Position numbers and translations under genes: made by a program. The notes beneath the pieces are model-generated. The model saw nothing but the letters and a program-made list of their open reading frames with translations. It was not told the DNA's origin and searched no databases. DNA of 61,187 bases, from positions 1-61,187 of the forward strand of contig JBDRBY010000046.1 of the NCBI GenBank assembly GCA_043822245.1, read 5' to 3'. Source of the stretch: Candidatus Omnitrophota bacterium (GTDB taxonomy: Bacteria > Omnitrophota > Gorgyraeia > Tantalellales > Tantalellaceae). Below, piece after piece: positions 1 to 61,187 of this stretch (position 1 is the stretch's first letter; every line of letters starts with the position of its first letter).

Positions 1-2
1 AC

Positions 3-485
3 TTTATTGTTGAGTTTTTAAAAATACATCCCTTTGAAGACGGCAACGGGCGTCTTTCTCGCGTGCTTACTAATTTACTCCTATTGCGATCGGGATATTT
101 ATTCGTACAGTATGTTTCGCACGAGCAATTAGTTGAAAAAAGAAAGGATGAATATTATATCGCTTTGCGTAAATCACAAGAAACATTTAAGACCGTTCGC
201 GAAACTATTTCGCCTTGGCTTAATTTTTTTACATCTCTTATAAAAGAGCAGGGTGATAAAGCGTTATTCCTTCTTGAAAAAGAAAGCATTGAAGACATAC
301 TATCACCAAAGCAAAACGAGGTTTGGCAATATCTCGCTATTGCTGAAATTAGCAGCCCAAGCGATATTGTAAAAGCTACAGGCATTGTTATGCCGACAGT
401 GCGCCAAGCGCTTGAGCGGCTGGTTGAGCTCGGCAAGATAAAAAGAACCGGACAAGGAAGGGGAACGAGGTATCGGAGGGTTTAG
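3..485 (+). CDS. Fic/DOC family protein, 5'-truncated by window edge
   Basis: Translation from nt 3 reads FIVEFLKIHPFEDGNGRLSR, matching the Fic motif HPFx(D/E)GNGR. The C-terminal part looks like a winged helix (SPSDIVKATGIVMPTVRQALERLVELGKI). Stop at 483-485. Confidence 0.85.
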   Translation, partial: FIVEFLKIHPFEDGNGRLSRVLTNLLLLRSGYLFVQYVSHEQLVEKRKDEYYIALRKSQETFKTVRETISPWLNFFTSLIKEQGDKALFLLEKESIEDILSPKQNEVWQYLAIAEISSPSDIVKATGIVMPTVRQALERLVELGKIKRTGQGRGTRYRRV

Positions 486-566
486 GCAAGAAGATAAAAG
501 ATAAAGCTGGGGCTATAATGAAAGTGTTTGACAAATACACAAGAGACAATCCGACATCATGGCAAA

Positions 567-676
567 TAATTCGGGGGACACAATACTTAATTTTGGTGCG
601 AGAAAGAATAACTAATTAAGTATTGTGTCCCCCGAATTACATAAGTATTGTGTCCCCCGAATTACACCCCGAATTA
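567..676. repeat. long palindrome (CGGGGGACA..TTAATT family) plus extra half-copies
   Basis: The 26-bp arms 567-592 (TAATTCGGGGGACACAATACTTAATT) and 614-639 are exact reverse complements. Partial extra arms lie at 642-664 and 667-676. A related palindrome is at 9420-9494. Confidence 0.85.
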
Positions 677-711
677 CACCAGCTTATTCATAACATCCGG
701 CAGATGGGATT

Positions 712-729
712 GGGGTCACCCATTATGCC
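712..729. repeat. left copy of 18-bp direct repeat GGGGTCACCCATTATGCC flanking the TA cassette
   Basis: The identical 18-mer recurs at 1438-1455. Confidence 0.8.
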
Positions 730-783
730 TGCCCTCGGATTTTTTTCATAGGGCGGCCTTTAGAAAATTCCTTACTTTCGTCC

Positions 784-812
784 TTGACGATTTCCTTGCA
801 ATATGGTACACT
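784..812 (+). promoter_or_regulatory. sigma-70-like promoter of the TA cassette
   Basis: TTGACG (784-789), 17 nt spacer, TACACT (807-812). A GGAGGTGGAG RBS follows, then ATG at 832. Confidence 0.4.
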
Positions 813-831
813 TATTGTGGAGGTGGAGAAT

Positions 832-1089
832 ATGACTATTACAATGACAGCTAAGCATCAGATAACGATACCTATAAGGATAACGACCGCTTTGGGATTA
901 AAAAAAGGATGTATGTTTGATGTAACGGTTTCGAAGAATGGGATAGAGCTTGTTCCTCTTGAAACAAAAAAGAGAGTATTTACAGAAGAGGAATATGAAA
1001 AATTAGAGACTTTGGCGTTGAGAGAAAAGGGAAAAGAGAAACGTGTGACAATGGAATTTATCAACAAGCTGAAAAAGGGAAAGGGTTAA
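832..1089 (+). CDS. AbrB/MazE (SpoVT-AbrB) family antitoxin
   Basis: MTITMTAKHQITIPIRITTALGLKKGCMFDVTVSKNGIELVPLE is a typical SpoVT-AbrB swapped-hairpin N-terminus. The RBS favours ATG 832 over the ORF-track start 784. The toxin ORF begins 4 nt downstream. Confidence 0.7.
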   Translation: MTITMTAKHQITIPIRITTALGLKKGCMFDVTVSKNGIELVPLETKKRVFTEEEYEKLETLALREKGKEKRVTMEFINKLKKGKG

Positions 1090-1092
1090 GCA

Positions 1093-1395
1093 GTGTCGTT
1101 GTATCTTTATTTTTGTCCATCGTTTAATAGAAGCCTTAAAATCTTGGGTTCTGAACAAAAGAAGGTGGTCGGGAGGATATTGGAAGCCTTGACTGTCTAT
1201 TATTCTAGCAATTGCAATTTGTTGAAAGCACAGAATATAGCCCCGCGATTTTTTTATAAACAATTAAAAAAACCGTTTTATGAAGCTGGGGGAGAACGAA
1301 ATATACGGATTGTGATAAGAAAAAATGGCGAACAATGTGTTGCCATGATAGCCGGTAATCACGATCAAATAAAACGGTTTTTAGCGAATAGTTAA
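1093..1395 (+). CDS. RelE/ParE-superfamily toxin (GTG start)
   Basis: 100 aa. The N-terminus F.RSLKILGSEQKKVVGRILEAL and the C-terminus RIVIRKNGEQCVAMIAGNHDQIKRFL follow the RelE/YafQ-like pattern (..R..f......i.l..iG.HD..Y). Tightly coupled to the antitoxin. Confidence 0.55.
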   Translation: MSLYLYFCPSFNRSLKILGSEQKKVVGRILEALTVYYSSNCNLLKAQNIAPRFFYKQLKKPFYEAGGERNIRIVIRKNGEQCVAMIAGNHDQIKRFLANS

Positions 1396-1437
1396 ACCAA
1401 CGTTGAAGTAGACATTCCTTGAGCTGATAGGCTGATA

Positions 1438-1455
1438 GGGGTCACCCATTATGCC
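1438..1455. repeat. right copy of 18-bp direct repeat GGGGTCACCCATTATGCC
   Basis: Identical to 712-729. Confidence 0.8.
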
Positions 1456-1466
1456 CCCTTTATCTT

Positions 1467-1550
1467 ATGCCTAAACTACCATTAATATCCGCGAAAAAAA
1501 ACATAAAAGCATTTGAAGGAATAGATTATCAAGTTATTCGCCAGCAAAGA
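1467..1550 (+). pseudogene. HicA-toxin N-terminal remnant
   Basis: MPKLPLISAKKNIKAFEGIDYQVIRQQR matches the HicA/YcfA N-terminus (MPKLPvvSgkeliKaLek.GfevvRQkGSH). Similarity is lost exactly where the GSH motif should follow. Confidence 0.5.
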
Positions 1551-1613
1551 ATTGTCAAGATCTCGCCAATTCTAATCATATCTAAGAATTTCTACCCAAA
1601 ACCAACTTTCTTG

Positions 1614-1622
1614 TGGTATAAT
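1614..1622 (+). promoter_or_regulatory. extended -10 element TGGTATAAT upstream of the giant ORF
   Basis: TGnTATAAT at 1614-1622, 38 nt before ATG 1660. Confidence 0.35.
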
Positions 1623-1659
1623 AAAAGTTTTGCAAATTTGTATATGGACGCCATATGTA

Positions 1660-4600
1660 ATGAAACGTACACACTTATTTAGATCATTATTAGTTAGTGC
1701 AACCAAAGTTTTTATCATTTTTGCTTTGTTTTTAAATGATGAGGCAGGGGCAATAGCTCCGTGGATGTCGTCTCAGATTCCGATGATTAAGTTGGAGATT
1801 CGCGCGGCAATGGAACGGGGCCGGATTATTGTGGCCCGCGATGATGAAGACAGGGCTTTGCTAAAACGATATAGAGCGGACGCGGTATTGTTAGAATCAT
1901 GGAAGTATCTTGTTTCGGAAGAGGTAGCGGCGGATGAAACCAGACTGATTAGGATAATTATACATGAGGATATAGAAGCCTTGATGCAGATATTGAGGGA
2001 AAGCGACAGATACAGGTATGACGCGATAAAGGATCTTTTGCTCAGTAACGGGCAGATAAAACAATATTACTACGGCCTTTGTCATAACGGGAAGGAACCG
2101 GAACATCTAACAGCGGATTTTTTGCTGAACGATATGGTAGCGAAAGCGTTAGAGATAATGTTTATGGTGCAAAATGGCTTTATCACATTGGAGGATTGTA
2201 ATTTAGATGAAGTGCAGGTTAAAGAAGCGCGGTTTTATTGGGCCATAGAGAAGGTAATAAAAGCTAATCGATATAACTATTTCAGAGAGGGGCTGTTTAT
2301 ATCGAAGGAAGACGCGCGGATAAGAAAGAAGAAAATAACGGAAGCGTTAGAGAGAGGATATAATTTTTACAAAGCGGCTTTGCCGGAGGCGTCGGTAATC
2401 CAGGCCTCGGCTCCGGATATTGTGGATCGCATAATTGAATGGCACCATTCGGGAAAAGGGCTCAAAGATGGAGATTATGTAATAACAAGGGTTAATCTCG
2501 GGAAACGTAAGTGTTTTAAAAGTAGGGGGAAAAGCGCTCGGTTTAGTTTTATTTTATCCGGACATGAAGAAGATCTTGAACAGACAACAGTCGTGTTTTT
2601 GGCGGAAGAAGATATAAATCACGGGTTAGTAGTAAACTGCCATTACCTGGAGGATTACAAATTAGCCAGGACAACGAATCCCATTGTAACTTTCAAATAT
2701 TCAACAAAAAAGAGTGGTATAGAAAAAGTTAATCTGGCGGCTCTGGATATCATTTATGTGAATTATGATTTTCCTAGATACGATTCCGGGAAAATAATAT
2801 CACTGCAAAGGCCGTATAAAACAACGATACATAATAACGGTACTATATGGGTGGGAATTCCTCCGGGGATAGAAACACATTTTCCCTGTCGTGGCAGTGA
2901 ATTTTTTGCGTCTGGAAAAATGGAAAATATTGGTAAAGAAGTGGTTGTTTTGGTTGAGGATGATAAAAACCATGGACAGGTTATCAATATTTATTTGTCC
3001 GATGAATATGTTGGAGAAGAGAATTCGATTCCAATTAAGACTTATCAATACTGGAAAGAGAGAAAACACAAGAACAGCGAGAATACAAGGGCTGTATTGG
3101 TCAGGTTGAATGTTTTAGATATTATACGGAGCAAAGAGGGGCAGGAGTTAAAAATATTTAATAGGCCGGTTAAAGCGGCGATTTTAAAACGAGATGAAAA
3201 GCGTTATGTTTGTATTATTTCGTTTATGCAGGGTACTCCGCACGAAAAAGTTGTTACATTGTCTATCCCAGGGGTATATATGAAAAGAAAAGACGCGGAT
3301 AGCATGGCTATGATATGTGTTGAAAAGGATCCGAATCATGGTCAGATAATTAATGTGTATTCCGAAAAAGATTTCAAGGAACAACCCGAAGCACGCCGAA
3401 CCCCTATAGTTACGTACAAATATTTCGATAAAGAAACCGCGCGTGAAATTCGAGGAGATAAAGCTCGCCTTTTTCGCCCCATAGATCTGATGTGTTTCGA
3501 TATAAGAAAATATTACAAAGAAAAAGGGCAGATTGAAGCAAAAGACAGGGTCGGTAAACGGATTGTGAAAAAATTGTCAGAAGATAAATTCGCTATTATC
3601 CTGCATAAAATTTTAACCAAACAAAGAACTATTGTGTTAAGCCTGCAAGATGTCGCTAAAGATGTTTTTCAATCCGTTAATTTACCCCTTATGGCGTCCA
3701 TTAAGATTGATAAGGACAAAGATTATGGCGCGTATATACATATCTCAAAAGACAATACTGTGCTGGCGAGATATTATTTTTTTCGGATACTGGAAGAATG
3801 TAAAGATGCGGATTTTGAAAGAATGGCATTTTTAGATTATGTCCTTGGAAACAACAATGTTTATGGAAATCCCGTTGTTCCGCGCGAGTTTTACTATAAG
3901 TGTAAAATCCATAAACTCGGAAATATAAAGATGAATTATCGAGGGCGAGAATACACGCTAACACGGTTGGGTGAATTAAATGGATACGAAAAAAAATTAG
4001 GGCATCCCATTGAAGAACTTGTTTTTGTGCCGGTTGCGGATGCCAAATATGGATACAGGATTTGTGTGCATAACGCCGCAGAATATAGAAAAAATATAGA
4101 CAGGGTTCCGGATGTAGTTCTGGTAAGAAATGGTTACTACAAAAAATTGATACCGATAGAGAAAATAGATATTTTTAACGCCAGAGAATTAATGAATAAG
4201 AGTTTTTATTATCAGGCAAAAAGTATTTTAACACATTTTCTCAAAACGGCTCCCAACAACGTGGAGGCGGCAAAATTTTTGAATACAGTAAATTATATGA
4301 TAAATTTCCCGGGAGGCATCCCTTTTGATAAACGGATCGCTTTTAACTTAAGTAGTTTGGGGAACGCTTTTATCGAAGAAAAAGATACAACTAAAGAGAA
4401 GAATTATTTTCACGCGTTAATGGGGAAAACACATGAAGAAACAGAAAAACTGTTTGTGGATATATTGGGATATCTGGATTTTGATGAACACGCTTTACCG
4501 TATCAAGTTTATATCAATTGTGCTGTTTTAGCTGTTTTAGCAGAATTTCCGGCCACGTTGAAAACACCTGATATGGCACTGAAAGTTTCGAAGTTTCTAT

Positions 4601-6552
4601 GTTATAACGGTGAAGGGAAGGAAGCATTATTTTCAGCAGGAAGGTCTTTTTTTGAATCGATTCCGGATGAAGTAAAATTTATCTTTAGCGGCAAGAACGC
4701 GAAGACGTACGAGTCGCGCGGCAGAAAAGATTCAGATGAAATAACGGCATATATGAGCGATATGTCTAAGTATCCTCGGCTTACCAGGTTGGGTGAGATT
4801 GCCTTAGGTGTACTAGCCCGATGTGGAGATGAAAAAGCGCGGGATATCCTTATTAACTGTAATTGGAGGCTTGTGTACTCGCTAGCAAAGAAGCGGGCAC
4901 GTTATTATGAAGGCATGGATTTAATGGATTTAATAAGTGTCGGGCATGAAGGTTTGATTAAAGGCAGTGATAAATATTTGCCGTATCTTGGAACAAGGTT
5001 TTCAACAGGGGTATATGTGTGGATACAGTCGTCCATTACCAGGTGGGCCAGGGATAATGCCCATCAGATCAAAATAAAAGACAATATGCAGGAAAAGATG
5101 CGTATTTTTAATAAAAAATGTAATGTCGCGGGTATTGATGTTCAAAAAAGGATGTCGATGCCGGAGGAGGAACTGGCGGAGTGTATTGACATGAAAGTTC
5201 GGGAAATTGAGAAAATTAGGTGTATTATCAGAATGATTAGTGATTTAACTAAGTCAGAGAAGGAAACCCCTTACGAAAATAATAACGGAGATGAAAAAGA
5301 AAAAACAGTCAGTTCAAATGATGGAGGGCATGATGTATTAGAAATGGAAAATATGATTGACAAAACAATAAACGAGATGAAGAAACGACTGGAAATGGAC
5401 GAAACCGCGCTAATGGTATTTGAACACCGAATAGCCGTGTCTTTAAAAGGGGATGGAAATCTAAAAAGTTATTCGGGAGTCGCCGCTTTATGTGATAATT
5501 TTAGTGGTAGGCAAGTTGAGCGTAAGGAAAAGGTTGTAGTTATACCCGAATTGCTGAAATTAATGAAAGAATGGAACCTTGAGTCAAAAGATTTCTTTTT
5601 AAAGAATATCACAACCGGATCTCCTGGAGCGGCGTTACGTACAATTTTTAAAAAATTTAAATTTAATAGATTTAGTAAAAAGGGCCTGTACCAATTGCGG
5701 AAGAAGATAAAAGAAGATACGTATTCTCGTTCAACAGTGGATATGGAGATAGGAGTATTAACAGCGCTCAATGTACTCATAAAACCGGAGAGAGGTGTGT
5801 ATCGGCTTAATCCTGTTTTTAAAGGGGATACTGAAGCTGAGACGGAAAGCAACATTGCCGCGGTGTATAACATAAAATTTCGCGTAGGAAAAGACAAACG
5901 AACGGATGTCCCGATGGGATGTTTTAGTATCCCTGATGATAAAATGCCGTTGGTAAAAGAATGTGTGCGGATGCAGATTGCCCATAGTTGGCATAAAAAA
6001 GCGGCAGAGGCTACTGACACTAAAAAAACATATACGATTAAATTATGGTCAGGTTACGCGGCACCCGGACAGGCAGTTACACTCGCGCGTATTGAGAAAA
6101 TGTATCGAAATTGTCCATACAGAGTTGAGTTTGTTGAATTAAAAGAACTTGTCGCGTTTGCTAAGGATAAAGAAAACGAAAAAGAGAGCACTGTAATAAT
6201 TTTGCCGTATAATGAGTTAGAGCCAAGACAACAACGTGATTTGCAAGATAACAAAACGCGCGTAATTTACACAAAATTTTCAAATAGAGATCAATTGCAG
6301 GCGGATGATATTGTACAGCTCGAGGCCATAATTGGATTGGGAACCGCGTATTTAATTGACAACGAAACCGCGTTTATGAATTTATGTAGCATACTTATGG
6401 ATAATGATAAAGACACGGACATAGTGATAAATCTTAAATCACTAAAAGAGAATCCACTGGCGTATATCGTGTGTATCAAAATAGAAAAAATCAACCTGGA
6501 AGATCTTCCCCGCCTCAACGACAGATTAAACGCGATGGTTAAGTCGTTGTAA
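1660..6552 (+). CDS. giant multidomain protein (~1,630 aa) with embedded sigma-70-like module
   Basis: The open frame runs from 1630 (TTG) with ATG at 1660 (MKRTHLFRSLLVSATKVFIIFALFL). Nt ~4740-5580 encode sigma-70 region 2/3/4-like sequence (NWRLVYSLAKKR..DLISVGHEGLIKG..RFSTGVYVWIQSSITRWARD). Five ~110-130-aa tandem modules lie at ~2600-4140. Confidence 0.8.
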   Translation: MKRTHLFRSLLVSATKVFIIFALFLNDEAGAIAPWMSSQIPMIKLEIRAAMERGRIIVARDDEDRALLKRYRADAVLLESWKYLVSEEVAADETRLIRIIIHEDIEALMQILRESDRYRYDAIKDLLLSNGQIKQYYYGLCHNGKEPEHLTADFLLNDMVAKALEIMFMVQNGFITLEDCNLDEVQVKEARFYWAIEKVIKANRYNYFREGLFISKEDARIRKKKITEALERGYNFYKAALPEASVIQASAPDIVDRIIEWHHSGKGLKDGDYVITRVNLGKRKCFKSRGKSARFSFILSGHEEDLEQTTVVFLAEEDINHGLVVNCHYLEDYKLARTTNPIVTFKYSTKKSGIEKVNLAALDIIYVNYDFPRYDSGKIISLQRPYKTTIHNNGTIWVGIPPGIETHFPCRGSEFFASGKMENIGKEVVVLVEDDKNHGQVINIYLSDEYVGEENSIPIKTYQYWKERKHKNSENTRAVLVRLNVLDIIRSKEGQELKIFNRPVKAAILKRDEKRYVCIISFMQGTPHEKVVTLSIPGVYMKRKDADSMAMICVEKDPNHGQIINVYSEKDFKEQPEARRTPIVTYKYFDKETAREIRGDKARLFRPIDLMCFDIRKYYKEKGQIEAKDRVGKRIVKKLSEDKFAIILHKILTKQRTIVLSLQDVAKDVFQSVNLPLMASIKIDKDKDYGAYIHISKDNTVLARYYFFRILEECKDADFERMAFLDYVLGNNNVYGNPVVPREFYYKCKIHKLGNIKMNYRGREYTLTRLGELNGYEKKLGHPIEELVFVPVADAKYGYRICVHNAAEYRKNIDRVPDVVLVRNGYYKKLIPIEKIDIFNARELMNKSFYYQAKSILTHFLKTAPNNVEAAKFLNTVNYMINFPGGIPFDKRIAFNLSSLGNAFIEEKDTTKEKNYFHALMGKTHEETEKLFVDILGYLDFDEHALPYQVYINCAVLAVLAEFPATLKTPDMALKVSKFLCYNGEGKEALFSAGRSFFESIPDEVKFIFSGKNAKTYESRGRKDSDEITAYMSDMSKYPRLTRLGEIALGVLARCGDEKARDILINCNWRLVYSLAKKRARYYEGMDLMDLISVGHEGLIKGSDKYLPYLGTRFSTGVYVWIQSSITRWARDNAHQIKIKDNMQEKMRIFNKKCNVAGIDVQKRMSMPEEELAECIDMKVREIEKIRCIIRMISDLTKSEKETPYENNNGDEKEKTVSSNDGGHDVLEMENMIDKTINEMKKRLEMDETALMVFEHRIAVSLKGDGNLKSYSGVAALCDNFSGRQVERKEKVVVIPELLKLMKEWNLESKDFFLKNITTGSPGAALRTIFKKFKFNRFSKKGLYQLRKKIKEDTYSRSTVDMEIGVLTALNVLIKPERGVYRLNPVFKGDTEAETESNIAAVYNIKFRVGKDKRTDVPMGCFSIPDDKMPLVKECVRMQIAHSWHKKAAEATDTKKTYTIKLWSGYAAPGQAVTLARIEKMYRNCPYRVEFVELKELVAFAKDKENEKESTVIILPYNELEPRQQRDLQDNKTRVIYTKFSNRDQLQADDIVQLEAIIGLGTAYLIDNETAFMNLCSILMDNDKDTDIVINLKSLKENPLAYIVCIKIEKINLEDLPRLNDRLNAMVKSL

Positions 6553-9731: not shown

Positions 9732-11330
9732 CTACGCGGCGGTGTTTAGTTGTTGGATGGTTAGTCTGTAGTATTCTTCTAAAGAACTTGTAGGGAGCGT
9801 TTGGGCTTGGGGGATGATTATGTGGCGGGTAAAGTTTGGCGCGTTTCCTAGAGATATGGCCTTACCTGTTATTCTTTTGTATTGTTTTTCGATAAAATCT
9901 ATTAAGCAGTTGTATTCGCTCATTTCGTCCGCGGATATATCAATTGGAATGTGAGATACCGCGAATACGATATTCAGCATGCCCACTATCCGCAATAACT
10001 GGCCGTCTAAATTGCCTTCAATGTTGATACTGCCTTCGCCGATCGGGATTTTTGAATCTTTTGAAACGTAACGGGATAGCGCTAATAAGGGAATGTTTTC
10101 GTTGCAGCAGGGGATTATCGTGATACGTTTAGGGTCAGGAGCTTTTGTTCGCAATAAATCGACATAGGCTTGAAGCAACGCCTCGGGTGAATTTTTTACA
10201 CGCGGTTCCAATCCGGCTTTCAGGCTGTATTCATCAAATCTTATTTTGTTGTATCTTAGTTCATAGATTTCATCTTTTTGAAAAGATGCCGGAATCAGTT
10301 TGTCCGTAAGTGTAAGAGCATTTTCAATGTCATTATCAGAAGCTGTGATAGGTTCCAAGATCACTTTTTGTTGTTCTTCCGGCGATGTTTGATACACGGT
10401 ATTTGGGTGCGTCGGGAAGTTCCAGGGGACGGCAGTTTCAGAGGAGGGCGCCGCGGGATAAAGATCATTGCCGGTAGTTGTGATTTTTTGTTTTTTGAAT
10501 CCGAAATAAAGTATTGATGAATATAGAAGACTTCCTAGAACTGTGAGTATGCAGGGAGCAACGTGCTTGGAGAAAGTGAAATACCAATTGACCGCGAAGA
10601 AAGCGGTGCTGTAAGCGAGTACCGCCAAAGTCGCGTATTTTACCCATGGTTTTATTTGTAATTTGTGAGTTTTAGCGCTTTCCTTATAAGCCATACAAAA
10701 CATAAAGATAGCGAACGGTATTTCGCAAAATGATACAAGCGCGTTTTTGGTTGAGAAACTTATTGAAATTCCGATGCTGGGTAGTCCAAATATACCGCCT
10801 AATGCTATGACCCAACATGGAAAAGCCCATCGAAGAGTTTGTACGAATTCCAGCGATTTTCCTTGAATGATTTGTCGTAAAGTTTGTTTCTTTAGCGGCT
10901 CATTATCTTTGGGCCAAAATTTTTCAACAAGACTATATGTTAGAAAAGCTAGAGAAATACTGATAAGCCCGGTAAAGGGCTGATCCGCGAGGCCGATCAT
11001 GTAAGGGGGAATGGATTTAAGCCAAATTGTGTAAGTAAACGGCCAAAACCAGCAATAAAAAAGGTTTGTTAACAAAAAGACCGCTTTGATTTTTCGCCAA
11101 TCGATTTTAAACTTTAAGTCAGAGTCAGGTTGAGTTTTTTTGTTTGATGCAAAGTTTATAAGTTGAGCGAAATATTCCCCGCCCGTCAAAAAAACGTTAT
11201 AATTCACGATGATTTTTAAATCGGTACAGCTTAGTATCTTAAAGTACGCGGATAGGTTACCAAAACCCAGTAGTTCTAATAGCAATTTTTCGGGAAGAAA
11301 AAATTGAATCAGTATGAAAAAGAGTGCCAT
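9732..11330 (-). CDS. multi-pass membrane protein with ~230-aa soluble C-terminal domain, unknown family
   Basis: 532-aa ORF with at least 8 hydrophobic segments in the N-terminal 300 aa. This is the only convincing minus-strand gene in the window. Confidence 0.6.
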   Translation of the reverse strand: MALFFILIQFFLPEKLLLELLGFGNLSAYFKILSCTDLKIIVNYNVFLTGGEYFAQLINFASNKKTQPDSDLKFKIDWRKIKAVFLLTNLFYCWFWPFTYTIWLKSIPPYMIGLADQPFTGLISISLAFLTYSLVEKFWPKDNEPLKKQTLRQIIQGKSLEFVQTLRWAFPCWVIALGGIFGLPSIGISISFSTKNALVSFCEIPFAIFMFCMAYKESAKTHKLQIKPWVKYATLAVLAYSTAFFAVNWYFTFSKHVAPCILTVLGSLLYSSILYFGFKKQKITTTGNDLYPAAPSSETAVPWNFPTHPNTVYQTSPEEQQKVILEPITASDNDIENALTLTDKLIPASFQKDEIYELRYNKIRFDEYSLKAGLEPRVKNSPEALLQAYVDLLRTKAPDPKRITIIPCCNENIPLLALSRYVSKDSKIPIGEGSINIEGNLDGQLLRIVGMLNIVFAVSHIPIDISADEMSEYNCLIDFIEKQYKRITGKAISLGNAPNFTRHIIIPQAQTLPTSSLEEYYRLTIQQLNTAA

Positions 11331-60729: not shown

Positions 60730-61187
60730 AAACTGGAGAGTTTGATCCTGGCTCAGAACGAACGCTGGCGGCGTGGATTAGGCATGCAAGTCGAACGATC
60801 CCTTTCTTTGAGGGGGATAGTGGCAAACGGGTGAGTAACGCGTGAGTAATTTACCTTTGGGTTTGGAACAACCTGTCGAAAGGCAGGCTAATACCGGATA
60901 AGACCACAATTCCTAAGGAATTGCGGTTAAAGGTGGGGATCCTGAAAATGGACCTATCGCCCATTGATGAGCTCGCGTCCTATCAGCTTGTTGGTGAGGT
61001 AAAAGCTTACCAAGGCGATGACGGGTAGCTGGTCTGAGAGGATGGTCAGCCACACTGGGACTGAGACACTGCCCAGACTCCTACGGGAGGCTGCAGTCGA
61101 GAATCTTTTGCAATGCCCGAAAGGGTGACAATGCGACGCCGCGTGAGCGATGAAGGCCTTCGGGTTGTAAAGCTCTGTCAGCTCGGA
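60730..61187 (+). rRNA. rrs: 16S ribosomal RNA, 5' ~460 nt (truncated by window edge)
   Basis: AGAGTTTGATCCTGGCTCAG (27F site) at 60737-60756, ...GGCGGCGTGGATTAGGCATGCAAGTCGAACG, and ACTCCTACGGGAGGCTGCAGTCGAGAATCTTTTGCAATG (the 341-360 region). Confidence 0.97.

What the first reader, a model, noticed from the sequence alone, without database searches (positions are those of the whole stretch)
1660..6552. ~1,630-aa ORF with a complete sigma-70 module buried behind a >1,000-aa N-terminal extension
One uninterrupted frame spans the region. Nt ~4740-5580 encode recognisable sigma-70 sequence. Region 2 reads INCNWRLVYSLAKKRARYYEGMDLMDLISVGHEGLIKGSDKYLPYLGTRFSTGVYVWIQSSITRWARD, against the consensus NLRLVvsiAkky....leDLiQEGniGLmkAvekFd...G.kFSTYAtwWIrqaI.Rai. 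A region-3-like MSMPEEELAECIDMKVREIEKI follows, then a degenerate region 4 (ETALMVFEHRIAV...SYSGVAALCDNFSGRQVERKEK). In front are a hydrophobic N-terminus, ~300 aa of unknown fold, five tandem modules and a helical region. Behind are ~320 aa that include a wHTH-like stretch. Sigma factors I know of are 200-600 aa. ECF sigmas with C-terminal extensions exist, but I am not aware of this architecture. The gene sits in an accessory island next to Fic, a TA cassette and a HicA remnant.
Basis: partly seen in the sequence, partly recalled or inferred. Interest (0 to 1): 0.8.

Follow-up and report, generated by a model that had tools for sequence, protein, structure and literature searches.

The report
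Signal-peptide-bearing giant sigma-70 fusion protein
This is a real 1,630-residue gene from an uncultured Omnitrophota-type bacterium in which a complete but degenerate sigma-70 transcription-factor module sits inside a previously undescribed family of large proteins that look exported, which raises the untested possibility that a bacterium sends a sigma factor outside its own cytoplasm.

Summary
One ORF (ATG 1660 to stop 6552, 1,630 aa) carries a genuine sigma-70 module at aa ~1020-1297. Pfam Sigma70_r2 passes its gathering score. NCBIfam RpoD/RpoS models give E~1e-20 over regions 1.2-3. An AlphaFold model aligns to whole sigmaS/sigmaA chains, so sigma2, sigma3 and sigma4 are all present.

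It is not an assembly chimera. Colinear relatives (about 30-35% identity) occur in independent assemblies, and one is identical on five contigs.

The main new finding is that the sigma module is one payload of a modular family. Every relative that carries a source name is from Candidatus Omnitrophota. The family has a signal-peptide-like N-terminus with an L(A/S)P motif, an optional N-domain, a variable middle, and a C-terminal winged-helix plus alpha/beta domain always at the extreme C-terminus (83 clusters, proteins of 114-4,580 aa). Other payloads include GNAT, NUDIX, methyltransferase, radical-SAM and M23 peptidase domains.

In this copy the promoter-melting and -35-reading residues are degenerate. 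Residues equivalent to three sigma70 positions linked to core binding in region 2.2 are also substituted.

The mechanism is unresolved. My favoured reading is an exported RNAP-targeting effector. The rivals are a tethered latent sigma factor and a pseudo-sigma. I found no published description. Rating: new variant of a known kind, interest 0.68.

The parts
1660..6552 (+). Whole gene: 1,630 codons plus stop. An alternative in-frame TTG lies at 1630.
   Evidence: ORF list; N-termini of relatives align to the ATG at 1660
1614..1622 (+). Extended -10-like TGGTATAAT, 37 nt upstream of the ATG. Possible promoter, not tested.
   Evidence: read directly; the consensus scan did not list it because there is no good -35
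1660..1752 (+). Signal-peptide-like N-terminus, aa 1-31: MKRTHLFR (net +3), h-region VFIIFALFL, c-region NDEAGA, then IAPWMSSQ.
   Evidence: the only hydrophobic segment in the protein. The same n-h-c/AxA + L(A/S)P pattern occurs in 41 of 75 M-starting relatives; most of the others look N-terminally truncated. The heuristic is crude (control).
1753..2394 (+). N-domain, aa 32-245, with conserved motifs APW.ASQ and IIHEDxEALMQIL.
   Evidence: 26-55% identical to ten relatives, including P0007, P0009 and P0024, which lack the modules; no PDB profile hit
2431..2778 (+). Repeat module 1 (aa 258-373).
   Evidence: HHalign M1-M2 99.3%, M1-M3 98.3%; beta-rich in the model
2779..3150 (+). Repeat module 2 (aa 374-497), motif VVVLVEDDKNHGQVINIY...PIKTYQY.
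3151..3522 (+). Repeat module 3 (aa 498-621).
   Evidence: HHalign M2-M3 99.6%
3523..3870 (+). Repeat module 4 (aa 622-737), divergent.
   Evidence: HHalign M3-M4 88.7%
3871..4197 (+). Repeat module 5 (aa 738-846), divergent.
   Evidence: HHalign M2-M5 93.4%
4210..4716 (+). All-helical domain (aa 851-1019). It precedes every confidently detected sigma module of the family and occupies the position of region 1.1.
   Evidence: no Pfam or PDB relative
4741..4833 (+). Sigma region 1.2 (aa 1028-1058).
   Evidence: Pfam r1_2 weak; aligned in NCBIfam and PDB matches
4849..5061 (+). Sigma region 2 (aa 1064-1134). The core-binding scaffold is kept. The melting and -12 residues are changed, and three region 2.2 positions (406, 407, 409) are also substituted.
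   Evidence: Pfam Sigma70_r2 25.4 bits vs GA 24; residue comparison
5077..5253 (+). Sigma region 3.0/3.1 (aa ~1140-1198), with a family-specific Cys in 'F.K.C..GID'.
5254..5334 (+). Acidic, low-confidence linker at the position of region 3.2 (aa 1199-1225).
   Evidence: pLDDT 30-42; 'ETP' motif aligned to SigA
5323..5538 (+). Degenerate sigma region 4 (aa ~1222-1293), four helices.
   Evidence: family alignment; Foldseek alignments spanning whole sigmaS chains; no Pfam r4 hit
5551..5934 (+). C1: winged-helix-like subdomain plus connecting helix (aa 1298-1425).
   Evidence: AlphaFold model with mean pLDDT 87; present in many of the C-domain proteins (about 60 of the 87 mapped)
5935..6549 (+). 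C2: five-stranded alpha/beta (flavodoxin/receiver-like) subdomain ending in a long terminal helix (aa 1426-1630).
   Evidence: no significant PDB fold match

Best explanation
Shown: window 1660-6552 is one genuine gene. It encodes a member of a previously undescribed modular protein family whose named members are all from Candidatus Omnitrophota. The family chassis is a signal-peptide-like N-terminus followed by an L(A/S)P motif, often a ~210-aa N-domain, a variable payload, and a C-terminal winged-helix-like domain (C1) plus alpha/beta domain (C2) that ends the protein. In this gene the payload is five beta-rich repeat modules, a helical domain, and a complete sigma-70 module derived from group 1/2 sigmas (regions 1.2, 2, 3.0/3.1, an acidic 3.2 linker, and 4).

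Inferred mechanism (the step I commit to): the protein is exported through Sec by its N-terminal signal. The sigma module acts as an RNA-polymerase-core-binding warhead rather than a conventional promoter-specificity factor. The region 2.1/2.2 scaffold is kept, although residues equivalent to sigma70 Q406, E407 and N409, which I recall as core-binding determinants, are substituted. The melting aromatics (equivalents of sigma70 Y430 and W433) and the -35-reading residues of region 4.2 are replaced. Its target would be the RNAP of another cell, a prey or host of these putatively predatory or parasitic nanobacteria, where it would compete with the resident sigma and block or redirect transcription. 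The sister proteins of the same chassis would deliver acetyltransferase, methyltransferase, NUDIX, radical-SAM or peptidoglycan-hydrolase payloads.

Not shown: export, delivery into another cell, and RNAP binding.
For: Real gene and real architecture. ORF. The same domain order is seen in P0002, P0004, P0005, P0011, P0012 and P0015 from independent assemblies. P0004 is identical on 5 contigs from at least 3 samples.

Sigma module.. Foldseek's top 50 PDB hits are all sigmaS/sigmaA/sigma70 chains at probability 1.0, with alignments spanning the whole 277-residue sigmaS chain.

Chassis. The C-domain is found in 83 representative clusters, 58 at E<1e-10. It is C-terminal wherever its terminal C2 part is detected, in proteins of 114-4,580 aa. 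The N-domain is shared with proteins that lack modules or sigma.

Export. An n-region with net positive charge, a 9-20-residue h-region and a small-x-small site are conserved family-wide despite sequence divergence. Genuine lipoprotein and OMP genes in the same window have the same look. One chassis member carries an M23 peptidase; from general knowledge, that enzyme class acts outside the cytoplasm.

Action in a cytoplasm. The other payloads (GNAT, NUDIX, SAM methyltransferase, DOT1-like, radical SAM/SPASM, HTH, AAA) need cytoplasmic cofactors or DNA. Export followed by action in a recipient cell reconciles the two sets.

Warhead rather than conventional sigma. NLRLV..AKK, DL...G..GL and (K/R)FSTYA are conserved, while Y430 becomes G, W433 becomes V, R436/Q437 become Q/S, and the region 4.2 recognition residues become G-R-Q-V-E-R.

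Lifestyle. Omnitrophota are proposed to be host-dependent predators or parasites (PMC10066038). Their long proteins are mostly SP/TM-bearing with 'cytoplasmic-type' Pfam content (10.64898/2026.06.07.730766). Effector roles have been proposed for the giant ones (10.1101/2023.11.21.568195).
Against: No secretion, translocation, chaperone or immunity genes lie next to any of the seven loci examined. All are solitary genes among housekeeping genes.

The signal-peptide call rests on a home-made heuristic that also flags about 3 cytoplasmic Rossmann enzymes in the window. No SignalP or DeepTMHMM run was possible.

No known mechanism would carry a 180-kDa Sec-exported protein into another bacterium's cytoplasm.

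The C-terminal wH + alpha/beta domain resembles a one-component regulator layout (weak matches to HTH+SIS regulators and KaiA), which suits an intracellular DNA-associated role in the producer.

Alternative sigma factors also diverge at the 'melting' positions, so degeneracy does not prove loss of sigma function. Several paralogues (P0007, P0017, P0002 second unit) keep canonical WW and region 4.2 motifs. Three region 2.2 positions that I recall as core-binding determinants are also substituted in this copy, which weakens the claim that core binding is retained.

The taxonomy of the window itself is inferred only from its relatives (one search gave no names).
Confidence: 0.35

Rival explanations
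1. Latent, envelope-tethered sigma factor of the producer cell. The N-terminal hydrophobic segment anchors or targets the protein to the membrane. The repeat modules and N-/C-domains sense a signal, and regulated proteolysis releases the helical+sigma part (or sigma+C1/C2), which then directs the cell's own RNAP to a dedicated regulon. This would be a one-polypeptide analogue of pro-sigmaK/pro-sigmaE or of anti-sigma/sigma pairs.
For: Complete sigma2-sigma3-sigma4 fold. Core-binding scaffold conserved. Several paralogues keep canonical -10 and -35 reading residues and pass Pfam r4 (P0017; P0002 and P0007). A helical domain sits where autoinhibitory region 1.1 sits. There is no dedicated anti-sigma gene nearby, so regulation could be built in. 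Solitary genes among housekeeping genes fit a cellular regulator. The C-terminal winged helix could add DNA contacts.
Against: With positive charges before the hydrophobic segment and only one such segment, the positive-inside rule puts the >1,590 remaining residues outside the cytoplasm, where a sigma cannot meet RNAP. The h-region (9-14 residues in most members) is short for a stable anchor. The same chassis carries an M23 peptidase. This copy lacks the key melting and -35 residues. Multiple paralogues with unrelated enzymatic payloads are not what a signalling sigma family looks like.
Confidence: 0.3
2. Pseudo-sigma or scaffold. The sigma fold has been co-opted as a protein- or DNA-binding module with no transcription-initiation role, for example tethering RNAP or nucleoid to the envelope or acting as a structural part of a large assembly. 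The repeats are the functional part.
For: Promoter-melting aromatics and region 4.2 recognition residues vary almost freely between paralogues, and WW is kept in only 5 of 18 units. Pfam r4 is below threshold in most members and r3 is never detected by Pfam. A family-specific invariant Cys and 'GIDP' motif in region 3.0 suggest a new constraint. Whole units are duplicated in tandem in P0002 and P0003, which is odd for a stoichiometric initiation factor.
Against: Regions 2.1, 2.2 and 2.3 stay recognisably conserved over ~30% identity relatives, which implies selection on the surface that contacts the beta-prime clamp helices. NCBIfam scores of ~74 bits to RpoD/RpoS models are high for a decayed domain.
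Confidence: 0.2
3. Artefact: the long ORF is a frameshift- or assembly-joined chimera of separate genes (an exported repeat protein, a sigma factor and a regulator).
For: Single contig from a metagenome. The window's proteins are singletons in the 90% clusters. No reads were available.
Against: The same order N-domain, modules, helical, sigma, C1, C2 recurs in at least six independently assembled relatives at ~30-35% identity. P0004 is encoded identically on five contigs from several samples. Composition and GC skew are uniform across the ORF. The alignments run through all domain junctions without breaks.
Confidence: 0.02
4. Component of an MZA-type anti-phage defence system (an MzaA-like sigma protein).
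For: NCBIfam MzaA E=1.6e-20 and PADLOC MzaA E=9e-10. Toxin-antitoxin-like genes lie upstream.
Against: The matches cover only the sigma part (profile positions 474-657 of 726, and 430-519 of 683). The score of 73.5 bits is far below the cut-off of 800. Generic RpoD/RpoS models score the same. No other PADLOC model hit. No MutL/Z1/AAA-type partner genes are nearby. Relatives sit among housekeeping genes.
Confidence: 0.02

Closest known systems
Group 1/2 sigma-70 factors (RpoD/SigA, RpoS)
   Same: Regions 1.2, 2.1-2.4, 3.0/3.1, an acidic 3.2 linker and a four-helix region 4 occur in the same order. The best sequence and fold matches are SigA and RpoS.
   Different: It is 3-5 times longer. It has a signal-peptide-like N-terminus, more than 1,000 aa of unrelated domains in front and 335 aa behind. 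Key residues differ (Q406S, E407V, N409H, Y425T, Y430G, W433V, R436Q, Q437S, and the region 4.2 recognition helix). Scores are far below every equivalog cut-off (74 vs 350-570 bits).
MzaA (sigma-70-family protein of the MZA anti-phage system) and large phage sigma proteins (PHROG 351, profile length 928)
   Same: These are precedents for a sigma-70 module embedded in a much longer protein with a long N-terminal extension. Both profiles hit the sigma part.
   Different: Only the sigma segment matches. No similarity exists outside it. There are no MZA partner genes and no phage context. Foldseek against viral models aligns only the sigma part.
ECF sigma factors with fused regulatory extensions (e.g. 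ECF41/42-type C-terminal extensions; from general knowledge)
   Same: The concept of a sigma factor fused to extra domains that regulate it in cis.
   Different: ECF sigmas have only regions 2 and 4. This module has regions 1.2 and 3 and matches group 1/2 models. ECF extensions are C-terminal and cytoplasmic or transmembrane, not a Sec-type N-terminus with five repeats.
Pro-sigmaK / pro-sigmaE of Bacillus (membrane-associated inactive precursors; general knowledge)
   Same: An N-terminal segment keeps a sigma inactive or membrane-associated until it is processed.
   Different: Those pro-sequences are about 20-30 aa and are removed by dedicated membrane proteases encoded elsewhere in sporulation regulons. 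Here the pre-sigma part is more than 1,000 aa and looks like a cleavable export signal plus folded domains.
Nuclear-encoded plastid sigma factors (SIG1-6) with transit peptides (general knowledge)
   Same: A sigma-70 protein carries an N-terminal targeting peptide and is moved across membranes to programme the bacterial-type RNAP of another genetic compartment. This is the closest functional analogy for the effector reading.
   Different: That is eukaryotic organelle import, not a bacterial Sec signal. Plastid sigmas keep canonical promoter-recognition residues and lack the repeat and C-terminal domains.
Polymorphic multi-domain effectors/toxins (MARTX, Rhs/CDI-type) and Omnitrophota very long proteins
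   Same: Conserved delivery or chassis parts with swappable payload domains, several paralogues per genome, and signal peptides in front of 'cytoplasmic-type' enzymatic domains.
   Different: Here both termini are conserved and the middle varies, whereas polymorphic toxins vary at the C-terminus. No immunity genes, no T1SS/T5SS/T6SS partner genes and none of the known delivery domains were found. No sigma payload was mentioned in the three Omnitrophota papers I checked for these long proteins.

Membership tests
Sigma-70 family (Pfam clan; regions 1.2/2/3/4) | Region 2 HMM match at or above the gathering score | tested here: met
   PF04542 at aa 1064-1134, 25.4 bits vs 24, E=1.2e-5; NCBIfam E~1e-20
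Sigma-70 family (Pfam clan; regions 1.2/2/3/4) | Regions 1.2 and 3 present (group 1-3 sigmas) | tested here: met
   Pfam r1_2 is below threshold (13.7 vs 22) and there is no Pfam r3 hit. Full-length RpoD/RpoS/SigA alignments do run through 1.2 and 3.0/3.1 (aa 1020-1250), and the fold alignment covers them.
Sigma-70 family (Pfam clan; regions 1.2/2/3/4) | Region 4 (HTH that reads the -35 element) | tested here: inconclusive
   No Pfam r4 or r4_2 hit in this protein. The position-homologous segment aligns with bona fide region 4.2 of relatives. The model has four helices there and Foldseek aligns whole sigmaS chains. The recognition residues are not conserved.
Sigma-70 family (Pfam clan; regions 1.2/2/3/4) | Conserved -10 melting and recognition residues (sigma70 Y425, Y430, W433, W434, Q437, T440; numbering from my memory of the E. 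coli sequence) | tested here: not met
   Q has T, G, V, W, S, T at these positions
Sigma-70 family (Pfam clan; regions 1.2/2/3/4) | Binds RNAP core and confers promoter-specific initiation | not testable with these tools
   Needs pull-down and in vitro transcription
RpoD / RpoS equivalogs (NCBIfam) | Score above the curated cut-off | tested here: not met
   Best 74.4 bits vs cut-offs of 354-572
MzaA / MZA anti-phage system | Full-length MzaA match above the cut-off, plus mzaB-E neighbours | tested here: not met
   73.5 bits vs 800, sigma part only; PADLOC hit on the sigma part only; neighbours unrelated
ECF (group 4) sigma with fused extension | Only regions 2 and 4, with ECF-type profile matches | tested here: not met
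   Regions 1.2 and 3 are present, and the listed best 25 of 37 NCBIfam hits are all group 1-3 models
Omnitrophota SP / N-domain / payload / C1-C2 chassis family (defined here) | C1 (winged-helix-like) plus C2 (alpha/beta) domain ending the protein | tested here: met
   aa 1296-1630 matches 83 clusters. The terminal C2 part, wherever detected, ends the protein. E=1e-63 to P0002 and 2e-58 to P0004.
Omnitrophota SP / N-domain / payload / C1-C2 chassis family (defined here) | Signal-peptide-like N-terminus followed by an L(A/S)P(W) motif and the N-domain | tested here: met
   AGA|IAPWMSSQ. The N-domain is 26-55% identical to ten relatives.
Sec-exported proteins (SPase I signal peptide) | n-region positive, h-region 7-15 hydrophobic residues, small residues at -3/-1, and experimental cleavage or export | tested here: inconclusive
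   Sequence features are present and family-wide, but the heuristic has false positives. No dedicated predictor or experiment was available.

The most novel reading that the evidence does not exclude
Omnitrophota export sigma-70-domain proteins as inter-bacterial effectors. After Sec-dependent export and transfer into a prey or host cell, the sigma module engages the victim's RNA polymerase core and shuts down or reprogrammes its transcription. This would be a cellular counterpart of phage-encoded sigma factors and of plastid-targeted sigma factors. It would belong to a wider arsenal in which the same N- and C-terminal chassis delivers acetyltransferase, methyltransferase, NUDIX, radical-SAM and peptidoglycan-hydrolase payloads.
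Probability: 0.25. Interest if true: 0.95.

Novelty: new variant of a known kind. Interest (0 to 1): 0.68.

Why it matters
Sigma factors are the textbook cytoplasmic specificity subunits of bacterial RNA polymerase. I found no published example of a bacterial sigma-70 domain behind a Sec-type signal peptide, or of one used as a swappable cassette in a polymorphic family of large proteins.

If the protein is exported and acts on another cell's polymerase, it would be a new class of inter-bacterial effector. It would also give a concrete molecular handle on how ultra-small Omnitrophota exploit hosts, which is an open question for an uncultured phylum.

If instead it is a self-contained, envelope-tethered latent sigma, it would be a new one-polypeptide signalling design.

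Either way the work defines four uncharacterised domains: the N-domain, the ~120-aa beta-rich repeat, the pre-sigma helical domain, and the C-terminal winged-helix plus alpha/beta domain. The C-terminal domain defines a family of at least 83 sequence clusters, 17 of the 87 proteins I mapped carry a full sigma module, and automated annotation currently labels the named sigma-bearing members simply 'sigma-70 family RNA polymerase sigma factor'.

Tried and rejected
1. Word-index homology search with the C-terminal 335 aa alone returned nothing, not even the query itself. This is a limit of the index, because the exhaustive HMMER search then found 83 clusters.

2. The search for related loci on genome contigs failed with the C-domain alignment because it has no conserved 7-10-mer. 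With the whole protein it found only an unrelated Clostridium sigma factor. No GTDB-based taxonomic census was possible.

3. Profile search with the modules+sigma alignment added only one new member, P0091.

4. Fold search of the C-domain model against the PDB gave no hit below E=0.016, and all TM scores were 0.25 or less. KaiA, O-methyltransferase and SIS-regulator hits show only a generic HTH + alpha/beta resemblance.

5. Fold searches of the 1,055-aa model were swamped by sigma hits, and the models cannot be cut. The folds of the repeat modules and the helical domain therefore remain unclassified.

6. Sequence profiles of the N-domain, repeat module and helical domain against PDB and Pfam gave nothing significant. 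The YscU hit (E=0.027) is recorded as a lead only.

7. I suspected that the 532-aa membrane protein on the minus strand (9732-11330) shares the C2 domain. HHalign probability is 0.2%, so I rejected this.

8. No paralogue of any part of the protein lies elsewhere in the window (tblastn).

9. The MZA defence reading is rejected.

10. The 'HEDxE' motif of the N-domain was considered as a metalloprotease site. It is not HExxH and is not invariant (P0004 and P0053 lack it), so I rejected it.

11. Cluster look-up of housekeeping proteins from the window, meant to name the organism, returned only nameless singletons.

12. The promoter/terminator scan gave fewer hits than the shuffled controls.


Full report
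1. THE OBSERVATION

The + strand carries one uninterrupted ORF, 1630..6552. The first ATG is at 1660 and gives a 1,630-aa product beginning MKRTHLF. All full-length relatives begin at the equivalent Met followed by basic residues, so 1660 is the likely start. GC content (0.34-0.42) and GC skew are even across the ORF.

The sigma-70 claim holds:
- Pfam Sigma70_r2 matches aa 1064-1134 at 25.4 bits, above the gathering score of 24. Region 1.2 matches weakly.
- Full-length NCBIfam models for RpoD, RpoS and SigA align to aa ~1020-1250 with E=1e-20 to 1e-13.
- PHROG 351 (phage sigma) gives 6e-26.
- B. subtilis SigA (7ckq_F) aligns over aa 1021-1235 at 3e-15, running through regions 1.2, 2.1-2.4, 3.0 and 3.1.

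Region 4 gets no HMM hit in this protein. In the family alignment the segment 'SYSGVAAL..FSGRQVERKEK' lies under the recognisable 'TLxEIA..G.SRERIRQxE' of relatives. Some of those relatives pass Pfam Sigma70_r4 (P0017; P0002 and P0007 precomputed).

An AlphaFold model of aa 246-1300 (mean pLDDT 79.9) has four helices at that position. Foldseek's top 50 PDB hits are all sigmaS/sigmaA/sigma70 chains at probability 1.0. The alignments span 280-320 columns, which covers the whole 277-residue sigmaS chain.

2. ANATOMY

BLASTP against relatives and local iterative HMM searches divide the protein into seven parts.

aa 1-31: the only hydrophobic segment in the protein.

aa 32-245: an N-domain.

aa 258-846: five repeat modules of ~110-125 aa. 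The shared signature is 'V.V..D.NHGQVIN.Y...Y....P..TYKY....V.L..LD'. Profile-profile comparison shows that modules 1-3 are unambiguous repeats (98-99.6%). Modules 4 and 5 are distant relatives (M3-M4 89%, M2-M5 93%). In the model each module is a beta-rich unit with two short helices.

aa 851-1019: an all-helical domain that occupies the place of region 1.1.

aa 1020-1297: the sigma module.

aa 1298-1425 (C1) and 1426-1630 (C2): modelled with mean pLDDT 87 and pTM 0.86. C1 is a three-helix plus beta-hairpin winged-helix-like subdomain. C2 is a five-stranded alpha/beta flavodoxin/receiver-like subdomain that ends in a long C-terminal helix.

The C-domain has no significant PDB fold match (best E=0.016, TM 0.25 or less). 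The N-domain, repeat module and helical domain have no significant Pfam or PDB-sequence relatives.

3. NOT A CHIMERA, BUT A FAMILY

The whole-protein search found nine relatives of 1,195-2,744 aa. Every one that carries a source name is annotated Candidatus Omnitrophota (more).

P0002, P0004, P0005, P0011, P0012 and P0015 show the same domain order at ~30-35% identity. The alignment runs through every domain junction. P0004 is encoded identically on five contigs from several samples. An assembly join is therefore excluded for practical purposes.

4. THE SIGMA UNIT IS A CASSETTE IN A LARGER CHASSIS

An exhaustive HMMER search with the C-terminal 335 aa against 1.84 billion representatives found 83 clusters, 58 of them at E<1e-10. 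The host proteins range from 114 to 4,580 aa. Wherever the terminal C2 part is detected, it ends the protein.

Mapping my segment profiles onto these proteins gives a common design:
- a signal-peptide-like N-terminus followed by an L(A/S)P motif (LAPW.ASQ in the closest relatives);
- sometimes the N-domain;
- a variable middle;
- C1-C2, ending in '...LLxAA/SA/AV'.

The helical+sigma unit is the middle in 17 of the 87 proteins mapped. It occurs with the five modules (this gene, P0004, P0011 and others) or without them (P0007, P0017, P0021-23). It occurs twice in tandem in P0002 and P0003.

Other members carry no sigma at all. Their middles contain GNAT acetyltransferase, NUDIX, SAM methyltransferase, DOT1-like methyltransferase, histidine phosphatase, M23 peptidase, radical-SAM/SPASM, Xre-type HTH or AAA domains.

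P0003 and P0008 come from one genome, so paralogues coexist.

Seven loci were examined, including the window. None shares conserved neighbours or has adjacent secretion, anti-sigma or immunity genes. Apart from the window itself, which has toxin-antitoxin-like genes upstream, the genes sit alone among housekeeping genes.

5. THE N-TERMINUS

Of 75 relatives that begin with Met, 41 have this pattern:
- a positively charged n-region;
- an uncharged hydrophobic stretch of ~9-20 residues;
- a small-x-small site (AGA, AMA, SHA, GFA, AQA, SYA, AFA and others);
- then the L(A/S)P motif.

Most of the remainder look like N-terminally truncated fragments.

The pattern survives although the sequences themselves diverge. 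Bona fide lipoprotein and OMP genes a few kb downstream in the window look the same.

By the positive-inside rule, and with no second hydrophobic segment, the bulk of the protein would lie outside the cytoplasmic membrane.

My heuristic is crude. It also flags about three Rossmann-type enzymes. The signal peptide is therefore a strong suggestion, not a demonstration.

6. STATE OF THE SIGMA MODULE

Conserved:
- region 2.1 (NLRLV..AKK);
- the region 2.2 scaffold (DL...G..GL..A...F/Y.P);
- '(K/R)FSTYA'.

Variable: the residues that sigma70 uses to melt and read the -10 element and to read the -35 element vary almost freely between paralogues. In this gene:
- Q406S, E407V, N409H;
- Y425T, Y430G, W433V (W434 is kept);
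- R436Q, Q437S;
- the region 4.2 recognition stretch reads S-G-R-Q-V-E-R-K-E where sigma70 has T-R-E-R-I-R-Q-I-E.

Q406, E407 and N409 are positions I recall as core-binding determinants in region 2.2, so retention of core binding is not secure either.

Only five units keep the WW pair. One of them, P0007, is fully canonical.

All units except P0007 share a family-specific 'F.K.C...GIDP' motif with an invariant Cys in region 3.0.

The picture is a module under selection to keep the sigma2 scaffold that contacts the RNAP clamp helices. In many copies, including this one, it is not under selection for conventional promoter opening.

7. HOW IT MOST LIKELY WORKS

Two sets of facts pull in opposite directions.

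Pointing to export:
- the signal-peptide-like N-terminus;
- the M23 peptidase payload in the same chassis. From general knowledge, that enzyme class acts on peptidoglycan outside the cytoplasm.

Pointing to a cytoplasm: sigma, HTH, GNAT, methyltransferase, NUDIX and radical-SAM payloads need RNAP, DNA, acetyl-CoA, SAM or a reducing environment.

The reading that reconciles both is export followed by action in another cell's cytoplasm. In that reading this is a polymorphic effector family in which this gene's warhead is an RNAP-core-binding sigma module that would compete with the resident sigma.

This fits proposals in the literature:
- Omnitrophota are host-dependent predators or parasites (PMC10066038).
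- Their long proteins are mostly SP/TM-bearing yet full of 'cytoplasmic-type' domains (preprint 10.64898/2026.06.07.730766).
- Effector roles are proposed for their giant proteins (10.1101/2023.11.21.568195).

None of these papers mentions sigma domains.

I give this reading 0.35, because export, transfer and RNAP binding are all unshown and no delivery machinery is linked.

The main rival (0.30) is a latent, envelope-tethered sigma of the producer cell that is released by proteolysis. It is favoured by the complete fold, by the canonical paralogues and by the regulator-like C-terminus. It is disfavoured by the predicted topology, the M23 sibling and the degenerate residues in this copy.

A pseudo-sigma or scaffold role gets 0.20. 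Chimera and MZA-defence readings are effectively excluded.

8. COMPARISON WITH KNOWN SYSTEMS

By sequence and fold the module is a sigma-70 family member derived from group 1/2 sigmas. It fails every equivalog cut-off (74 bits vs 350 or more).

It is not an ECF sigma, because it has regions 1.2 and 3.

It is not MzaA: 73.5 bits vs 800, only the sigma part matches, and there are no partner genes.

MzaA and PHROG 351 show that long sigma-containing proteins exist, but they share nothing outside the sigma part.

Functionally the nearest analogies, from general knowledge, are:
- phage-encoded sigmas and plastid-targeted nuclear sigma factors, for the effector reading;
- pro-sigmaK and pro-sigmaE, for the latent-sigma reading.

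The chassis resembles polymorphic effector families in logic, but here both termini are conserved and none of the known delivery domains is present.

9. NOVELTY AND VERDICT

I found no description of this architecture or family in the searchable literature. Public annotation calls the named relatives 'sigma-70 family RNA polymerase sigma factor' or 'hypothetical protein'.

I rate it a new variant of a known kind: a sigma-70 domain in an unprecedented, apparently exported, modular context. There is a 0.25 chance that it represents something categorically new, an inter-cellular sigma effector.

Interest is 0.68. The feature is real and surprising, it defines a family and it is testable, but the mechanism rests on inference only.

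Noticed in passing
window 60730-61187: The 5' 445 positions of a bacterial 16S rRNA gene run off the end of the window (398 bits). The window equals a whole 61,187-bp contig. This fragment could be used to place the organism phylogenetically.
   Followed up: no
L004:11635-14634 (gene directly downstream of relative P0008): A 999-aa protein with no Pfam hit starts with the same kind of N-terminus (MRKITAITIAIILAVPPNAFC|LRPMA) and ends '...VAVDAAA'. P0006, P0008 and P0003 share the 'A|LRPIA' variant instead of 'A|LAPW'. Omnitrophota large proteins may therefore use a second N-terminal motif class.
   Followed up: partly
extreme C-termini of the family (window 6526-6549 and P0002-P0087): Nearly every member ends 2-3 residues after a conserved 'LL', with small non-polar residues (..MEELLRAV, ..LLSAV, ..LLVAA, ..LLTSA). 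This is reminiscent of ssrA/Tsp-type non-polar C-terminal degrons. The window protein is an exception (..NAMVKSL).
   Followed up: no
window 2431-3522 (repeat modules 1-3; motif at e.g. aa 434-441 'EDDKNHGQ'): The most conserved feature of the repeat is an Asn in a 'D-x-N-(H/R/Q)-G' turn between two beta-strands. A profile of the repeats gives a weak, non-significant match (E=0.027) to the YscU/FlhB autocleavage domain, which cleaves at an N|PTH turn. This is a possible autoproteolysis lead.
   Followed up: partly
window ~5149-5190 (aa ~1164-1177, sigma region 3.0): All family sigma units except the canonical P0007 share 'F.K.C...GIDP' with an invariant Cys that ordinary sigma70 and sigmaS lack. 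Its role is unknown.
   Followed up: no
window 9732-11330 (- strand): This is the only ORF of at least 150 aa on the minus strand that does not overlap a longer plus-strand ORF. It encodes a 532-aa hydrophobic, apparently multi-pass membrane protein with no Pfam hit. I suspected a shared C2-like end, but HHalign rejected it (probability 0.2%).
   Followed up: yes
window 1-1682: Upstream of the gene lie: a truncated ORF with a winged-helix C-terminus whose start looks Fic-like (63-485); a weak MazE/AbrB-like ORF (784-1089) followed by a 100-aa ORF without hits (1093-1395); and a 71-aa HicA-like remnant (1467-1682) that overlaps the start of the big gene. These genes are absent from the loci of relatives.
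   Followed up: partly
window 1614-1622: TGGTATAAT, an extended -10-like element, lies 37 nt upstream of the ATG, and there is no obvious Shine-Dalgarno sequence. In five of the six relatives' loci the gene is preceded by an intergenic spacer of 300-430 nt (160 nt in L008).
   Followed up: no
P0002 (aa 230-1262 and 1395-2434), P0003 (aa 64-1122 and 1150-2015), P0004 (aa 1343-1378): Whole modules+helical+sigma units are duplicated in tandem within single proteins. P0004 carries an extra region-4-like HTH after its degenerate one.
   Followed up: partly
window 1-61187: All but one of the non-overlapping ORFs of at least 150 aa are on the + strand. Cumulative GC skew rises monotonically over the first 14 kb examined, consistent with a single replichore arm.
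   Followed up: no
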